Origin: a phage
Sequence record: PZ386972.1
Length of the DNA stretch: 64,000 nt
Direction: 5' to 3' (one strand)
Position 1 is the stretch's first letter; the number at the start of each line of letters is the position of its first letter. Below are positions 34,999 through 61,662 of the stretch, piece after piece. The notes under the pieces were generated by a model that did no database searches, was not told the origin of the DNA, and saw nothing but the letters and a program-made list of their open reading frames with translations. The position numbers and the translations under genes are program-made.

Positions 34999-35248
34999 GG
35001 ATATTTTAACATTCCTACGTAGTGAGAATACCCAGTTTTGGCATGACTATATTCAGGAAAATAAAAATAATCCAGATATAGTTGCTTTTGCCAAGAAACG
35101 TATTGGGGAGTATAAAGATCCAGAGATTAAAGATGGGATGATTACTATGCAGTTATGGATAGCTATGAAAACCTTTGGACCCACTATGAGTCTAGGATTT
35201 ACTCCACTGTTTACTGATATTCTAATTAATGAAAAGGATCTGAAATGA
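34952..35248 (+). CDS. hypothetical protein
   Basis: ORF track. Confidence 0.4.
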   Translation: MKRLNINSTVQIPATKDILTFLRSENTQFWHDYIQENKNNPDIVAFAKKRIGEYKDPEIKDGMITMQLWIAMKTFGPTMSLGFTPLFTDILINEKDLK

Positions 35249-35529
35249 TTATCTCTCCCTTTGCTCTTTGGTTCGTCATCGGGTCTGTGGTTGCTATTTA
35301 CAGCTTGATTGATGATCTATATATTTCTAAGAATAAAGATGTAATATTATACGTTATACATAAAACCCGACCATTAGACCTACCACCTCTTGATGATAAA
35401 ACATTACTCAGGTGTGCTAGATCTATGATATTTATTATGGATATTCTTTTAGGGCCAGCATCTGTACTTTTCTTTTATAGAAAAACTCGTAATATGAAAA
35501 AGTTTAAAGCTGAAATGCGGAATATTTAA
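35245..35529 (+). CDS. small membrane protein
   Basis: ORF track; hydrophobic N-terminal helix. Confidence 0.4.
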   Translation: MIISPFALWFVIGSVVAIYSLIDDLYISKNKDVILYVIHKTRPLDLPPLDDKTLLRCARSMIFIMDILLGPASVLFFYRKTRNMKKFKAEMRNI

Positions 35530-35603: not shown

Positions 35604-35984
35604 GTGGTGAGGTGGCTGCTAGCCATAACTGGAGATGATATGACTATATTACTAATTCTTGTTACAACTTGGTTTTTAATTGGTGCTGGATATGCGATAG
35701 CTATTATTAGACATTTGGACGAATATTCTGCTGAATGGTTTGTTAAGTATCTACGTATTGATGATCAGGAACATGAATTTAAGGATGAAAAGCAGAAAAA
35801 GGCAGTAGAGAAAATGACAGGCAAAGAATGTTTATTCTACATGCGTATTGTAGGATTCTTTGGGTTATTAATTGCTGGCCCAATTGGTTCTACTATTGCT
35901 CCGTACAAAGAAACAGTTGCTGACATCAAATTATGGAGAAATGCAGGGGTACTACGCAAAGCTAGAGAAACTAATATCACATAA
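35604..35984 (+). CDS. membrane protein (2-3 TM helices)
   Basis: ORF track; hydrophobic segments. Confidence 0.4.
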   Translation: MVRWLLAITGDDMTILLILVTTWFLIGAGYAIAIIRHLDEYSAEWFVKYLRIDDQEHEFKDEKQKKAVEKMTGKECLFYMRIVGFFGLLIAGPIGSTIAPYKETVADIKLWRNAGVLRKARETNIT

Positions 35985-36028: not shown

Positions 36029-36064
36029 AGCCCAGCCTGCACTTTTGCGACTGGGCTATTTTTG
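36029..36064 (+). terminator. rho-independent terminator
   Basis: AAGCCCAG...CTGGGCT hairpin then ATTTTTG. Confidence 0.6.
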
Positions 36065-36078
36065 TAATAAAATTTTAG

Positions 36079-36138: not shown

Positions 36139-36837
36139 ATGAGGATTATTTCTAAATTCGCAGATGTATATGATTTGCAGAACAGTTTGTTTGATCCCGA
36201 TCGTGTTTGGGAGCGTAAAACTGAAGAGTTACTGGTTAAAGTAACTGATGATGCAGAAAAGAACATCGTGCATAGTCGCCAGGTATTTCGTGAAGATTCA
36301 CTATCTTTCCGTGGAGACTTCGAATACTTTGTAAATCCATTGTTCGTTGCAGGTGAAGTTTACTGGTTACACGAGCTGTACTGCTGGCATCCAGAGTTTA
36401 GCTTCAAAACGTTCGACCTCGACACTATGTTCGATAAAATGGAAGAGATGGGATTGCATGCTCGCTCTTACTTAATGGATAAGAGTCGTGGAGATGTTCG
36501 TGAAACAATGCGTGATTTGCTCGTTGAAGCAAAACCTAAAGCAGAACGTATCTTGTCCGAACTGCGTGTACCGATTGCATATGTGAAAGGTATCAAGAAG
36601 AACGATAACGATGATGTTCGTAACTTCGTGATTCAGACTAACATTCGTTTCCATCAGTCAGGTATTCCGTGGCAGGAAATTGAAAGTAACTTATACCGTT
36701 TACACCAAGTTCTCGAACAGTATATCTTCGGTGTACTAGGAACTGGTGAGCCTGATATGATTAAAGTATCAGATAAAGATAGGTTAGCAGCGCATGGATT
36801 TGATACAAAAACTTCTTTCAGGAATATGGCATGGTAA
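36139..36837 (+). CDS. hypothetical protein
   Basis: ORF track. Confidence 0.5.
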   Translation: MRIISKFADVYDLQNSLFDPDRVWERKTEELLVKVTDDAEKNIVHSRQVFREDSLSFRGDFEYFVNPLFVAGEVYWLHELYCWHPEFSFKTFDLDTMFDKMEEMGLHARSYLMDKSRGDVRETMRDLLVEAKPKAERILSELRVPIAYVKGIKKNDNDDVRNFVIQTNIRFHQSGIPWQEIESNLYRLHQVLEQYIFGVLGTGEPDMIKVSDKDRLAAHGFDTKTSFRNMAW

Positions 36838-37243
36838 GTGGTATATCCTGGGAGCAGGTCTAGCGATAGGCATCGGATTCGGTGCTTATCACTTAGTAGA
36901 TAAAGTGGAGACTTTAGCGGGAGATCTTGCAGTAGCTACTAAAAAGATCTCTTCTCTAGAGACTTCCCTTAATAAGGTGAAAGCTGAAAGCGAACTTCGT
37001 GAGACTAGAATGAATCAGTATTTCACGATGAATAATATTTCTCAAGCAGATCTAGACAAAAAGATTAAGCAGCTAGATAAAGCTCTTAGTCGTCAAGATG
37101 TTATCGCTGCAAAACCTGGATTGGTAACATTAATTGCTAAAAAGCAGAATAAAGAGTTCGAGGAAAGATTAGCGTGTTTAACTGGAAACTTGGAGTACTG
37201 CTCGCAGCCACAATCACAATCACAGGCTGTGCAGAAGAAATAA
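36794..37243 (+). CDS. i-spanin-like protein (N-terminal TM helix plus periplasmic coiled coil)
   Basis: TM segment WYILGAGLAIGIGFGAY followed by heptad-rich region; 3' end overlapped by lipoprotein gene in another frame. Confidence 0.4.
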   Translation: MDLIQKLLSGIWHGKWYILGAGLAIGIGFGAYHLVDKVETLAGDLAVATKKISSLETSLNKVKAESELRETRMNQYFTMNNISQADLDKKIKQLDKALSRQDVIAAKPGLVTLIAKKQNKEFEERLACLTGNLEYCSQPQSQSQAVQKK

Positions 37244-37527
37244 AACCAGAGCCATCTCATGAGTTAAAGCAAGCTCATGTAGATTGGCCTAAAGGACTTC
37301 AACCTTGTAGCTTTGACTTTAAATTTGAAAAGAAATTAGCTACAAATGGGGAAGATGGCGTAGTAGTTGTTATACCATACAAAGATTGGAATGCAAAAGC
37401 AAAATGTGAGGAAGCAGTTTACTCTTACATTTCACGACTGACTGGTATGGTCTGCTTTTATCGTCAAGATTTACAAGAAAAACGTTGCTTAGTTTACTAT
37501 CCACCAATTAACAATAGGAAAGATTAA
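37174..37527 (+). CDS. outer-membrane lipoprotein (o-spanin-like), start embedded in the previous gene
   Basis: Signal peptide with lipobox LLAATITITGC; embedded/overlapping arrangement typical of Rz/Rz1 pairs. Confidence 0.4.
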   Translation: MFNWKLGVLLAATITITGCAEEIKPEPSHELKQAHVDWPKGLQPCSFDFKFEKKLATNGEDGVVVVIPYKDWNAKAKCEEAVYSYISRLTGMVCFYRQDLQEKRCLVYYPPINNRKD

Positions 37528-38279
37528 TGTCAGTATTAGTCGGTTTACATGGTGAAGCTGGTTCGGGAAAAGATACCGTTGCAAAATTAATTATCGATTG
37601 GTGTAATGACACGTATCCAACGTGTTTATCTCGTCGTTATAGTTTTGCTAAGCCCGTTTATGAACTTGCATCCGTAATCCTCGGTGTAACTCCAGAGTTT
37701 CTAGGAGAGCGCAGGGGGAAAGAGATTGACCAATGGTTTACGGTCACACAATCTCAGTTGGAACGAGCCAGGGATGTGTGGTTTAAGTACGGTATCGATA
37801 AGTTTGAAGACTTCTCGTACGTTTGGCCTATTTTTGAGGAAAAATATCTTAATCCTCAACAACTTATCTCAGAGAATAAAGAAGACGGACTTTATAGTTT
37901 ATTTATTTCTCCGAGAAAAATGTTACAGCTCGTAGGGACAGAGCTAGGAAGGCAGCTGGTGCATGAACGCATTTGGCTCATAATTCTGGAGCAATCCATC
38001 GCTAAAGACGACCCAGACGTCGCCGTAATAACAGATGTTAGATTCCCCAATGAAGGAGAGCTACTCAGAGAAACAAACCATTTAGATATGGATTCTTTGA
38101 TAGTAAATGTAGTACCCGCTGAGCAGAAGTTTACTATTAAATCAGATCATCCATCTGAAAGTGGTATTCCTGCAAAATATATTACCCACGAATTAGTTAA
38201 TAAATTCGATGGTATCAATAACCTTAAACTAGAAGTTTATAACTTCTGTGACTTAGAGCTAGAACCACTAGTTGAATAA
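37527..38279 (+). CDS. deoxynucleoside monophosphate kinase
   Basis: 250 aa; P-loop GLHGEAGSGKDT at N-terminus; T5-type dNMP kinase size and position. Confidence 0.6.
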   Translation: MSVLVGLHGEAGSGKDTVAKLIIDWCNDTYPTCLSRRYSFAKPVYELASVILGVTPEFLGERRGKEIDQWFTVTQSQLERARDVWFKYGIDKFEDFSYVWPIFEEKYLNPQQLISENKEDGLYSLFISPRKMLQLVGTELGRQLVHERIWLIILEQSIAKDDPDVAVITDVRFPNEGELLRETNHLDMDSLIVNVVPAEQKFTIKSDHPSESGIPAKYITHELVNKFDGINNLKLEVYNFCDLELEPLVE

Positions 38280-38291
38280 TCAAGGATCGCT

Positions 38292-38891
38292 ATGACTAAT
38301 AAAAAAGAAGAAAAGACTAACCTGTTTCACTCCATTCGCCAATCTAATGAGTATACCTTTTTCTTTGATGAAGAATTAGGCCCGCCGGATGAATACCGTG
38401 ATTTATCAATGGTACTTATGCAGGCAAATGAGGACGACGAAATTAATCTGATGATTAATGGCCCGGGTGGTTATGTTGATACTGCTGCACAGTTATCTAA
38501 CTTAATTGCTAATTGCCGTGGAACAGTTATAGGACATCTGGTTGGTCCTAGTGCTTCTGCTTACTGCACAATTTTCCTATCCTGTCATGGATGGGTGGTA
38601 CATCCACATGCTACGCTAATGGGACACACGTTCTCTGGCGGATTCTGTGAGAAAGGTCAAGAAATCAAGAAAGCCTATGAATCTTACAACAAGTTCGTAG
38701 AAGATATGATGCTAGATGTCTACTATCCGTTCTTCTCAATAGATGAAATCGACGAGATGGTAAAAGACAACAAAAATATCTATCTAGATAGCAAGGAAAT
38801 CCATAAGCGTATTGAAATCTTGGCAAAATATCGATCTGAGCAATATAATAAAGCCCATTTACCTAAATCCGAGAAGCACAACGAAGAGTAA
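38292..38891 (+). CDS. ClpP-like serine peptidase
   Basis: MINGPGGYVDTAAQL resembles the ClpP INSPGG motif; GPSASAY and MGHTFSGG around candidate Ser/His. Confidence 0.5.
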   Translation: MTNKKEEKTNLFHSIRQSNEYTFFFDEELGPPDEYRDLSMVLMQANEDDEINLMINGPGGYVDTAAQLSNLIANCRGTVIGHLVGPSASAYCTIFLSCHGWVVHPHATLMGHTFSGGFCEKGQEIKKAYESYNKFVEDMMLDVYYPFFSIDEIDEMVKDNKNIYLDSKEIHKRIEILAKYRSEQYNKAHLPKSEKHNEE

Positions 38892-38900
38892 GTAATTTTA

Positions 38901-38934
38901 AGCCAGGGTTTAACGACCCTGGCTTTTCTTTTAT
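38901..38934 (+). terminator. rho-independent terminator
   Basis: AGCCAGGG...CCCTGGCT hairpin then TTTCTTTT. Confidence 0.65.
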
Positions 38935-38994
38935 CTAAAATTCTTCTTGACAACGACAAAATTTTATGCTCCAGAAGTGATCTTTAAAAACACA

Positions 38995-39023
38995 TTGTAA
39001 TTTTCCTCCAAAATTAGTATAAT
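38995..39023 (+). promoter_or_regulatory. candidate promoter upstream of holin (TTGTAA-17-TATAAT)
   Basis: Seen in sequence; weaker -35. Confidence 0.35.
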
Positions 39024-39047
39024 GGTAATGGTTAGAGGAGGTTACAA

Positions 39048-39704
39048 TTGGAAAAGTTCTTACAATTATTAACAGTACTGCTCCAAGAAGCGAAAGATCC
39101 AGCATCGCTTCTTAAACGTCTGCTAACTATCTTAGTTGCTGTCATTATTTTCTTATTTGTTAGTAATACTAGCGAGGTGATGTCATTCTTAAAGACTTTC
39201 TCCACGTCTGCGGTTCTACAGGATGTTCAAACTCAAAGGATAGATAACTTTCCCAATGTAGCTAGAGAAAAGAGCATGGTACTCTTTTCTCAAACGGGTG
39301 CGGATGCTGTTTTTGTCGTCAAGTATAAACCCGATGCCATTAATGATTATTCTAACATTATTGCATGGGAAAGCAATGCGCAATTAGATAGGGCTGACTT
39401 GGCCGATAAAGCGGTAAATAAAACGTCTGAGCTATATAGACGTCACTTGGAAGGCTTTAACTACGCATCGGATTTAAGTGTAAAAGTAAATAAATACATG
39501 GGGTTAAATATACCTGCGTTTAAGAACGTTACTTTTAATTACATATACACTTGTCCGTATTTCAATCTAAACAATATCTATGCTGGATATATTGGTATTG
39601 CTTGGAAAGATAATCCTGTAGATGCGGCCGATTCTGAGAAATTTAACGAGTATTTAACAAAGCTCTGTTCTCCACAACAGAGATCTTTAGGTAGATCAAT
39701 ATGA
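39048..39704 (+). CDS. putative holin
   Basis: TTG start with GAGGAGG RBS; TM segment LLTILVAVIIFLFV; immediately upstream of and overlapping the endolysin start. Confidence 0.5.
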   Translation: MEKFLQLLTVLLQEAKDPASLLKRLLTILVAVIIFLFVSNTSEVMSFLKTFSTSAVLQDVQTQRIDNFPNVAREKSMVLFSQTGADAVFVVKYKPDAINDYSNIIAWESNAQLDRADLADKAVNKTSELYRRHLEGFNYASDLSVKVNKYMGLNIPAFKNVTFNYIYTCPYFNLNNIYAGYIGIAWKDNPVDAADSEKFNEYLTKLCSPQQRSLGRSI

Positions 39705-40114
39705 GTTTTAAATTTGGTAAAAATAGCGAAAAACAATTAGCTACCGTTAAGCCAGAGCTACAAAAAGTAGCTCGTAGAGCTTTAGAATTATCTCCATATG
39801 ATTTCACGATCGTACAGGGTATTCGTACAGTAGCACAAAGTGCCCAGAATATTGCTAATGGTACTTCATTTTTAAAAGATCCTAGTAAAAGCAAGCATAT
39901 TACTGGGGATGCCCTTGATTTTGCTCCATACATTAATGGCAAAATTGATTGGAATGATTTAGAAGCATTTTGGGCAGTTAAAAAGGCTTTTGAACAAGCT
40001 GGTAAAGAACTGGGCATTAAACTTCGTTTTGGTGCTGATTGGAATGCTTCGGGAGATTATCACGACGAAATAAAACGTGGTACCTATGATGGTGGTCATG
40101 TCGAACTAGTTTAA
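39701..40114 (+). CDS. lys: endolysin, M15-family L-alanyl-D-glutamate peptidase
   Basis: 137 aa; VanY/M15-like H...D...H zinc-binding pattern (SKHITGDALDF, DGGHVE); matches T5-type endolysin size. Confidence 0.75.
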   Translation: MSFKFGKNSEKQLATVKPELQKVARRALELSPYDFTIVQGIRTVAQSAQNIANGTSFLKDPSKSKHITGDALDFAPYINGKIDWNDLEAFWAVKKAFEQAGKELGIKLRFGADWNASGDYHDEIKRGTYDGGHVELV

Positions 40115-61395: not shown

Positions 61396-61662
61396 TTACA
61401 GGTAATTAGATTGTTCTAGTTTAAATTTACAATTACCATATTTAAGGTCAAACTGACTGAGATCCCACCATCCAAACTTAGTACGGAGCTGTACTACTGG
61501 AAAGCGATCTCCCTTAATACGAACTTTTTGAACCTTGAGACCGTAATGTTCTTCTCCCGCACCACCAAAAGATTTTACAAATCCCGTACAAAATGGTTTG
61601 GGAGCAGGTGCACAACCAGATAACATAACTGCGGCAACTAGTGCAATCACAAACTTTTTCAT
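61396..61662 (-). CDS. llp: Llp-like lipoprotein (candidate receptor-blocking superinfection-exclusion protein)
   Basis: Signal peptide with lipobox LSGC; small size; divergent from the adjacent receptor-binding-protein-like gene, as for T5 llp/oad. Confidence 0.5.
   Translation of the reverse strand: MKKFVIALVAAVMLSGCAPAPKPFCTGFVKSFGGAGEEHYGLKVQKVRIKGDRFPVVQLRTKFGWWDLSQFDLKYGNCKFKLEQSNYL

What the first reader, a model, noticed from the sequence alone, without database searches (positions are those of the whole stretch)
36794..37527. Embedded lipoprotein gene within a TM/coiled-coil gene: spanin-like pair located 1.8 kb from the holin-endolysin cassette
The 149-aa product has an N-terminal TM helix and a coiled coil. 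A lipoprotein with lipobox ITGC starts inside its 3' end in another frame, an arrangement almost diagnostic of Rz/Rz1-type spanins. It is separated from holin and endolysin by dNMP kinase and a ClpP-like gene, which is unusual, and the lipoprotein is longer and more Cys-rich than typical o-spanins.
Basis: partly seen in the sequence, partly recalled or inferred. Interest (0 to 1): 0.4.

Follow-up and report, generated by a model that had tools for sequence, protein, structure and literature searches.

The report
T5-family overlapped spanin gene pair
These two overlapping genes are the well-known inner- and outer-membrane "spanin" pair of T5-like phages, which breaks the host's outer membrane at the last step of lysis. 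It is real but already described and annotated.

Summary
A 149-aa protein (36794-37243) has an N-terminal transmembrane helix and a heptad-patterned helical periplasmic domain. A 117-aa lipoprotein (37174-37527, GTG start, lipobox ITG|C19, Ala at +2) starts inside its 3' end in another frame. The overlap is 70 nt, so the architecture is "overlapped", not "embedded".

The window is a Tequintavirus (T5-like phage, up to 97.7% nt identity to isolates). The two proteins fall in PHROG 739 and 812 ("Rz-like spanin"), the same families as T4 PseT.3 and PseT.2, a pair shown to complement lambda Rz/Rz1 mutants (Kongari 2018, PMC6139136). That paper already describes the "T5 family" of spanins, its 70-bp overlap, and relatives split by a homing endonuclease. 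T5 T5.045/T5.044 and many other GenBank records carry spanin annotations.

The gene order spanins, dNMP kinase, Clp-like protease, terminator, promoter, holin, endolysin is conserved in four Demerecviridae genera. The "unusual" separation is therefore the family norm.

The high cysteine count is real: 4 periplasmic Cys in the o-spanin and 2 in the i-spanin. Two extra Cys pairs are specific to Demerecviridae, but such counts are already catalogued.

Verdict: interpretation supported, already known, low interest.

The parts
36794..37243 (+). i-spanin gene (149 aa; homologue of T5 T5.045 and T4 PseT.3)
   Evidence: ORF. PHROG 739 'Rz-like spanin' at 1.6e-37. BLASTP to T4 PseT.3 gives 3e-6. 100% identical to the phage SUT_E520 protein.
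36842..36898 (+). Transmembrane helix of the i-spanin (residues 17-35, YILGAGLAIGIGFGAYHLV)
   Evidence: Hydropathy maximum of 1.55. Lys residues on the N-side predict N-in/C-out (read from the sequence).
36905..36988 (+). Heptad-repeat (coiled-coil-like) helix of the i-spanin, residues 38-65
   Evidence: 8 of 8 a/d positions are hydrophobic, reached by 9 of 500 shuffles. Helical in the AF2 model.
37112..37126 (+). KPGLV motif of the i-spanin (residues 107-111). K107, P108 and L110 are the only columns invariant from T5-like to T4-like i-spanins.
   Evidence: Alignment A2.
37175..37201 (+). i-spanin C-terminal Cys pair C128...C136 (LACLTGNLEYC). Conserved in Demerecviridae, absent from T4 PseT.3.
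37160..37167 (+). Shine-Dalgarno-like GAGGAAAG, 10 nt upstream of the o-spanin GTG start
   Evidence: Read from the sequence.
37174..37527 (+). o-spanin gene (117 aa precursor, 99 aa mature; homologue of T5 T5.044 and T4 PseT.2)
   Evidence: ORF. PHROG 812 at 3.3e-30. BLASTP to T4 PseT.2 gives 1e-7. All database homologues carry PF26831 and names such as o-spanin or Rz1. BFVD fold matches are o-spanins and PseT.2.
37174..37230 (+). Lipoprotein signal peptide with lipobox ITGC (Cys19 at 37228-37230), followed by Ala at +2
   Evidence: G18 and C19 are invariant across T5-like and T4-like sequences.
37174..37243 (+). 70-nt dual-coding overlap of the i-spanin 3' end and the o-spanin 5' end
   Evidence: Variation is concentrated at i-frame position 3, which is o-frame position 1 (10 of 24 sites).
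37453..37488 (+). o-spanin C94...C105, aligned with T4 PseT.2 C87/C98 (essential for T4 lysis according to Kongari 2018)
   Evidence: Invariant in alignments A1 and A3. Literature.
36139..36837 (+). Upstream co-directional gene (232 aa, unknown function, T5.047 homologue). Overlaps the i-spanin start by 44 nt and is probably the first gene of the transcription unit.
   Evidence: Promoter-like site at 36045-36073.
37527..38279 (+). dNMP kinase (dnk), context gene between the spanins and the holin
   Evidence: PHROG 139 and PF21448.
38292..38891 (+). Clp-like protease, context gene
   Evidence: PHROG 1827 and PF00574.
38900..38925 (+). Intrinsic-terminator-like hairpin (11-bp stem plus T run) ending the unit that contains the spanins
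   Evidence: T5 and Sugarland have a terminator annotated at the same place.
38995..39023 (+). Sigma-70-like promoter (10 of 12 matches) in front of the holin
   Evidence: T5 has a promoter annotated at the same place.
39048..39704 (+). Holin (T4 T-type, 218 aa)
   Evidence: PF11031 at 8e-114 and PHROG 860.
39701..40114 (+). Endolysin (M15-type peptidase, 137 aa)
   Evidence: PHROG 465 at 2e-54. The PF13539 match (23.2 bits) is below the 25-bit cut-off.

Best explanation
This is the two-component spanin of a T5-like phage (Tequintavirus), in the 'overlapped' gene architecture.

Inferred mechanism:
- The 149-aa i-spanin inserts in the inner membrane by its N-terminal helix (N-in/C-out). It extends a mostly helical, partly coiled-coil domain into the periplasm.
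- The 117-aa o-spanin is exported, lipidated on Cys19, cleaved by signal peptidase II and sorted by Lol to the inner leaflet of the outer membrane (Ala at +2).
- The C-terminal parts of the two proteins bind each other and form a complex that spans the periplasm through the peptidoglycan mesh.
- Disulfides are made by the host Dsb system. By analogy with T4 PseT.2 C87/C98, the o-spanin pair C94/C105 would form them and stabilise homodimers.
- When the T-type holin (39048-39704) triggers and the endolysin (39701-40114) degrades the murein, the complexes are freed to move and change conformation. They fuse the inner and outer membranes, which removes the last barrier to release of progeny.

The genes are transcribed with dnk and a Clp-like protease from a unit separate from holin-endolysin.

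Shown here: gene structure, targeting signals, homology to the validated T4 pair, conservation and synteny.
Inferred: topology, complex formation, disulfide wiring, membrane fusion.
For: - ORFs, TMD, lipobox and the 70-nt overlap.
- Heptad pattern and helical model of the i-spanin.
- PHROG 739 and 812 'Rz-like spanin' at 1.6e-37 and 3.3e-30. These are the same PHROGs as T4 PseT.3 and PseT.2.
- Direct BLASTP to T4 PseT.2 gives 1e-7, and to PseT.3 gives 3e-6.
- T5 T5.045/T5.044 carry 'Rz-like spanin' labels with notes of similarity to T4 PseT proteins. Relatives are annotated i-spanin/o-spanin.
- Kongari 2018 (PMC6139136) describes the T5 spanin family with a 70-bp overlap. It shows that T4 pseT.3/pseT.2 complement lambda RzamRz1am and that PseT.2 C87/C98 are essential.
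- C94/C105 align with those two Cys and are invariant in 53 homologues.
- Both frames are intact, with invariant Cys and lipobox Cys, in 33 relatives. Codon-position variation shows purifying selection on both frames.
- Synteny with the holin-endolysin genes is conserved in four Demerecviridae genera.
- BFVD fold matches of the o-spanin model are o-spanins and PseT.2.
Against: - I found no direct experimental test of the T5-family pair itself (no knockout, complementation or lipid labelling) in the searchable literature. Function rests on homology of about 25-30% identity to the T4 pair.
- There is no Pfam or NCBIfam hit in the local libraries.
- No solved structure exists for either protein.
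- The genes are not in the same transcription unit as the holin and endolysin.
Confidence: 0.93

Rival explanations
1. The lipoprotein is a superinfection-exclusion, receptor-blocking lipoprotein of the T5 Llp / Cor type. The upstream TM protein is an unrelated membrane protein, and their overlap is only compact phage gene packing.
For: T5-like phages do encode such a lipoprotein (Llp, cited). The product here is longer and richer in Cys than lambda Rz1.
Against: - The o-spanin hits only PHROG 812 (spanin), not PHROG 1119.
- A different gene in the same window, 61396-61662 (-), is the Cor/Llp-type lipoprotein at 5e-26.
- The lipoprotein is homologous to T4 PseT.2, including the two essential Cys.
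- It is always paired with the PseT.3 homologue across genera.
Confidence: 0.02
2. The pair is an envelope-spanning complex expressed from an early or middle operon with a role other than, or in addition to, outer-membrane disruption. Examples would be tethering the envelope or interfering with cell division during infection.
For: - It is co-transcribed with dnk and a Clp-like protease rather than with holin-endolysin.
- There is a weak, sub-threshold resemblance of the TM-plus-coiled-coil part to FtsL (20.6 bits against a cut-off of 50).
Against: - The FtsL hit is far below threshold and is expected for any single-TM coiled-coil protein.
- The T4 homologues, also not located near the holin and endolysin genes, are functional spanins.
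- Nothing positive points to another function.
Confidence: 0.04
3. The second ORF is a chance open frame and not a gene.
For: It uses a GTG start, and many GenBank records do not call it.
Against: - It is intact in all 33 relatives, and most have an ATG start.
- Variation in its non-overlapped part is dominated by the third codon position (50 of 94 sites against 15 and 10).
- The Cys and the lipobox Cys are invariant.
- Only 2 lipoprotein-signal ORFs occur in the 64 kb, against 0.1 expected.
- It has homologues in T4-like phages.
Confidence: 0.01

Closest known systems
Phage T5 spanin pair T5.045 / T5.044 (the 'T5 family' of two-component spanins, Kongari et al. 2018, PMC6139136)
   Same: - Same genes: 86% (i-spanin) and 90% (o-spanin) amino-acid identity.
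- Same 70-nt overlap.
- Same lipobox ITGC and same Cys positions.
- Same downstream neighbours: dnk, Clp-like protease, holin, endolysin.
   Different: - The window lacks the hegF homing endonuclease that precedes the i-spanin in T5, so the i-spanin start overlaps the T5.047 homologue by 44 nt.
- The first ~15 residues of the cytoplasmic tail differ.
- The o-spanin start is GTG instead of ATG.
Phage T4 PseT.3 (i-spanin) / PseT.2 (o-spanin)
   Same: - Same PHROG families, 739 and 812.
- Shared KPGLV motif in the i-spanin.
- Shared W-P motif and C-terminal CxYRxxLxExxC motif with both essential Cys in the o-spanin.
- o-spanin of similar size, with a predicted long C-terminal helix.
- Located away from the holin and endolysin genes.
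   Different: - In T4 the two genes share only the 4-nt start/stop junction and are classed as 'separated' by Kongari 2018.
- PseT.3 has no Cys.
- PseT.2 lacks the C45/C78 pair.
- The window i-spanin is ~30 residues longer at the C-terminus and carries C128/C136.
- Identity is only about 23-29%.
Lambda Rz / Rz1 (prototype two-component spanin)
   Same: - Same functional class and topology: a type II inner-membrane protein with a helical periplasmic domain plus an outer-membrane lipoprotein.
- The lipoprotein gene starts inside the i-spanin gene in another frame.
- Both have periplasmic Cys.
   Different: - No detectable sequence homology: no Pfam hit at E<=0.01, and among the PHROG spanin families only 739/812 were hit.
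- Rz1 is wholly embedded in Rz, and its mature form is about 40 aa, proline-rich and unstructured (from established knowledge).
- Here the mature o-spanin is 99 aa and is predicted to be folded (beta-hairpin plus helix).
- The lambda genes sit directly after S and R.
T5 Llp / Cor-type superinfection-exclusion lipoproteins
   Same: Small phage-encoded outer-membrane lipoprotein with several Cys.
   Different: - Unrelated family.
- The window's Cor/Llp-type gene lies elsewhere, at 61396-61662 (-).
- It has no paired TM partner.

Membership tests
Two-component spanin (functional class; Summer 2007 / Kongari 2018 criteria) | i-spanin: a single N-terminal TMD (type II, N-in/C-out) followed by a largely helical or coiled-coil periplasmic domain | tested here: met
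   TMD at residues 17-35 with Lys residues on the N-side. Heptad pattern at 38-65, reached by 9 of 500 shuffles. All-helical AF2 model. The topology itself is predicted, not measured.
Two-component spanin (functional class; Summer 2007 / Kongari 2018 criteria) | o-spanin: SPII lipoprotein signal with a lipobox Cys and an outer-membrane sorting signal (no Asp at +2) | tested here: met
   MFNWKLGVLLAATITITG|C19-A20. G18 and C19 are invariant in the seven representative T5-like and T4-like sequences. C19 is invariant and G18 nearly invariant in the 53-sequence alignment.
Two-component spanin (functional class; Summer 2007 / Kongari 2018 criteria) | Adjacent i- and o-genes in embedded, overlapped or separated architecture | tested here: met
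   Overlapped by 70 nt. Relatives with a homing-endonuclease insertion are 'separated'.
Two-component spanin (functional class; Summer 2007 / Kongari 2018 criteria) | Periplasmic cysteines able to give intermolecular disulfides | tested here: inconclusive
   Cysteines are present and invariant: o-spanin C45, C78, C94, C105 and i-spanin C128, C136. Which disulfides form cannot be determined from sequence.
Two-component spanin (functional class; Summer 2007 / Kongari 2018 criteria) | Physical i-o complex through the C-terminal regions; required for outer-membrane disruption; complements lambda RzamRz1am | not testable with these tools
   Shown for the T4 homologues in PMC6139136. I found no experiment on a T5-family pair.
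T4 PseT.3 / PseT.2 sequence families (PHROG 739 / PHROG 812; Pfam PF26831 for the o-spanin) | Significant match to the family profile over most of its length | tested here: met
   PHROG 739 at 1.6e-37 (profile positions 6-122 of 122). PHROG 812 at 3.3e-30 (positions 1-100 of 102). The T4 proteins hit the same profiles. All homologues carry precomputed PF26831.1. That model is apparently not in the local Pfam copy, which gave no hit.
T4 PseT.3 / PseT.2 sequence families (PHROG 739 / PHROG 812; Pfam PF26831 for the o-spanin) | The two C-terminal Cys of the o-spanin (T4 C87/C98), essential in T4 | tested here: met
   C94 and C105 align with them and are invariant in 53 sequences.
Lambda Rz / Rz1 sequence families | Sequence match to the Rz and Rz1 profiles; o-gene wholly embedded in the i-gene | tested here: not met
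   No Pfam family at E<=0.01 for either protein. Only 70 nt of the 354-nt o-gene lie inside the i-gene. The pair is functionally analogous to lambda Rz/Rz1, not a sequence-family member.
Llp / Cor superinfection-exclusion lipoproteins | Match to the Cor/Llp profile (PHROG 1119) | tested here: not met
   The o-spanin hits only PHROG 812. PHROG 1119 is hit by another gene, at 61396-61662 (-).

The most novel reading that the evidence does not exclude
The two Cys pairs specific to Demerecviridae are o-spanin C45/C78 and the i-spanin C-terminal C128/C136. They are invariant from T5 to Proteus phage Stubb and absent from the T4 homologues. They could wire the complex differently from lambda and T4, for example through a covalent heterotypic i-o disulfide or an additional redox-controlled step. 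As far as I know (not checked here), no i-o disulfide has been reported for any spanin. Kongari 2018, as read, discusses homotypic linkages only. The data here do not exclude this, but they give no positive support beyond conservation. An ordinary structural intramolecular disulfide is more likely.
Probability: 0.08. Interest if true: 0.35.

Novelty: already known. Interest (0 to 1): 0.06.

Why it matters
It matters little beyond correct annotation.

- The pair completes the lysis gene set (holin, endolysin, spanins) of this T5-like phage.
- Many GenBank records of relatives still leave the o-spanin uncalled or label it 'hypothetical'. This locus is a good example of the gene-caller bias against overlapped genes that Kongari 2018 noted.
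- The only small open point is what the two lineage-specific extra cysteine pairs do.

Tried and rejected
- Pfam and NCBIfam scans of both proteins found no family above threshold. The only hit was a sub-threshold FtsL-like match for the TM/coiled-coil part, dismissed as generic.
- PDB sequence searches and a Foldseek PDB search of the o-spanin model found nothing significant. No solved structure is available for comparison.
- The first word-index homology search with the single o-spanin returned only 5 close relatives. It had to be repeated with a profile of T5-like plus T4-like sequences to get 54.
- The Llp/Cor reading of the lipoprotein was considered and rejected.
- The chance-ORF reading was considered and rejected.
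- I wanted Cys-Cys distances from the AF2 model to assign disulfides, but model coordinates are not exposed to the script tool. The disulfide topology is left open.
- Literature searches for an experimental test of T5 spanins found only genome announcements and the 2018 catalogue. Summer et al. 2007 could not be searched by title because of the slash in 'Rz/Rz1'.

Full report
**What is there**

The region holds two co-directional ORFs on the + strand.

ORF 1, 36794-37243, 149 aa, ATG start:
- The frame opens only two codons upstream.
- One strongly hydrophobic segment lies at residues 17-35 (YILGAGLAIGIGFGAYHLV).
- Lys6 and Lys15 lie on the N-side and acidic residues follow the helix. This is the pattern of an N-in/C-out type II inner-membrane protein.
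- Residues 38-65 have a hydrophobic residue at all eight a/d heptad positions. Only 9 of 500 shuffles reach this.
- A single-sequence AlphaFold model is all-helical with breaks near residues 80 and 102-107. Confidence is low to moderate.

ORF 2, 37174-37527, 117 aa, GTG start, GAGG 10 nt upstream:
- It begins MFNWKLGVLLAATITITG|C19 AEE, a textbook signal peptidase II lipobox.
- Ala at +2 means there is no inner-membrane retention signal.
- It has four further Cys, at 45, 78, 94 and 105.

The starts are 380 nt apart (2 mod 3) and the genes share 70 nt, 37174-37243. In the standard nomenclature this is the "overlapped" architecture, not the "embedded" one.

**More than chance**

- A strict lipoprotein-signal scan of all six frames of the 64-kb window finds two ORFs only, against 0.1 on average in shuffles. 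The other is a Cor/Llp-type gene at 61396-61662 (-).
- In 33 related loci both ORFs are intact. The lipobox Cys and every other Cys are invariant.
- 28 of those loci keep the 70-nt overlap.
- Among 27 distinct sequences, variable sites outside the overlap lie mostly at third codon positions of the respective frame: 61/110 against 18/111 and 7/111 for the first gene, and 50/94 against 15/93 and 10/94 for the second.
- Inside the overlap, variation concentrates at i-frame position 3, which is o-frame position 1 (10 of 24 sites). The changes are silent in the first protein and conservative in the signal peptide of the second.
- Both frames are therefore under selection.

**What the window is**

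The 4-kb block from 36139 to 40114 is 97-98% identical to many Tequintavirus (T5-like) isolates. 454 phage records match it. The i-spanin protein is 100% identical, and the o-spanin 99% identical, to those of Escherichia phage SUT_E520.

**Family assignment**

- The two proteins match PHROG 739 (1.6e-37) and PHROG 812 (3.3e-30), both named "Rz-like spanin".
- T4 PseT.3 and PseT.2 match the same two PHROGs.
- Direct BLASTP gives 3e-6 and 1e-7.
- The T5 reference genome annotates T5.045/T5.044 as Rz-like spanins, with notes of similarity to T4 PseT proteins.
- Other records say i-spanin/o-spanin outright.
- A profile search of 5.8 billion proteins returned 54 homologues. All carry the precomputed Pfam accession PF26831 and, where named, are called o-spanin, Rz1 or outer-membrane lipoprotein.
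- An AlphaFold model of the o-spanin built on that alignment has mean pLDDT 79.5, and above 88 over most of residues 41-110. It shows a beta-hairpin (50-66) followed by a long helix (69-96).
- The model has no significant PDB neighbour. Its best matches in BFVD are o-spanins and PseT.2 proteins.

**Literature**

Kongari et al. 2018 (PMC6139136) report the following:
- They define a "T5 family" of two-component spanins: T5, EPS7, Stitch, SPC35, AKFV33, FFH1 and DT57C are overlapped by 70 bp. Shivani and phiR201 are separated by ~700 bp holding a GIY-YIG homing endonuclease.
- T4 pseT.3/pseT.2 complement lambda RzamRz1am.
- Both PseT.2 cysteines (C87, C98) are essential.
- In their catalogue of 526 systems, four periplasmic Cys is the top class for o-spanins (35 systems). 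A total of six Cys is found in 16 systems.

Genome announcements for Shivani and Sugarland mention the same spanins.

**Context**

The order in the window is:
- upstream unknown gene (T5.047 homologue)
- i-spanin
- o-spanin
- dNMP kinase
- Clp-like protease
- hairpin terminator (38900-38925)
- promoter (38995-39023)
- T-type holin
- M15 endolysin

The order is seen in the window. It is annotated the same way in T5 and Sugarland. The gene order also holds in Proteus phage Stubb (Novosibvirus) and Pectobacterium phage My1 (Myunavirus), with overlaps of 10 and 34 nt; Sugarland has 88 nt. The distance from the holin-endolysin genes is thus a family trait, not an oddity.

**What is specific to this lineage**

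Alignments show that C94/C105 and the lipobox are shared with T4-like o-spanins, and that KPGLV is shared among i-spanins. The o-spanin pair C45/C78 and the i-spanin C-terminal pair C128/C136 are conserved in all four Demerecviridae genera and absent from T4-like phages. Their role is unknown. Intramolecular structural disulfides are the simplest guess.

**Mechanism (inferred from the family)**

- The i-spanin is anchored in the inner membrane.
- The o-spanin is lipid-anchored in the outer membrane.
- Their C-terminal regions bind, disulfide-stabilised complexes thread the murein, and endolysin action releases them to fuse the two membranes.

None of these steps was or could be tested here. 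I found no direct experiment on a T5-family pair.

**Verdict**

The feature is already known and annotated, and interest is low.

Noticed in passing
window 61396-61662 (-): 88-aa lipoprotein (MKKFVIALVAAVMLSGC|A) matching PHROG 1119 'Cor superinfection exclusion protein' at 5e-26. It is presumably the Llp/Cor-type receptor-blocking lipoprotein of this phage, and it is the only other lipoprotein-signal ORF in the window.
   Followed up: partly
L004 1882-2580 (phage IrisVonRoten); also L030, L031, L032: A 699-nt homing-endonuclease gene (T5orf172/MUG113 GIY-YIG-like domain plus zinc ribbons) is inserted inside the spanin overlap. The i-spanin gets a new 7-residue tail after LEYC, and the o-spanin gets a new start, MRKIKLGILL. 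The sequence GGAATACTG is present on both sides. This is a natural conversion from 'overlapped' to 'separated', already reported for Shivani and phiR201.
   Followed up: yes
window 36139-36837 (+): 232-aa protein of unknown function (PHROG 4243; no Pfam or NCBIfam hit). It overlaps the i-spanin start by 44 nt. It is the conserved 5' neighbour of the spanins in T5 (T5.047, with hegF inserted between), Sugarland and My1. One GenBank record calls it 'DNA polymerase III subunit epsilon'; the profile scans here gave no hit to support that name.
   Followed up: partly
window 37174: The o-spanin start codon is GTG here and in 7 of 27 distinct relatives, and ATG in the other 20. The A/G polymorphism is silent in the i-spanin frame (GCG/GCA Ala).
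   Followed up: yes
GenBank records hit: Annotation of this locus is inconsistent. The o-spanin is often uncalled, 'hypothetical' or labelled i-spanin, and some records place 'putative terminase' on this stretch. Records named Listeria phage LM 4-14-1 and Campylobacter phage A148 carry T5-like sequence, which suggests contamination or mislabelled hosts.
   Followed up: no
window 35245-35529 and 35604-35984 (+): Two small predicted membrane proteins lie just upstream of the spanin-containing unit. They are homologues of T5.049 and T5.048, annotated with two TM domains each. Their function is unknown.
   Followed up: no
window 39048-39704 (+): The holin belongs to the T4 T-holin family (PF11031, 8e-114). 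Like the spanins, it is therefore of T4 type, although the endolysin is an M15-type peptidase.
   Followed up: no
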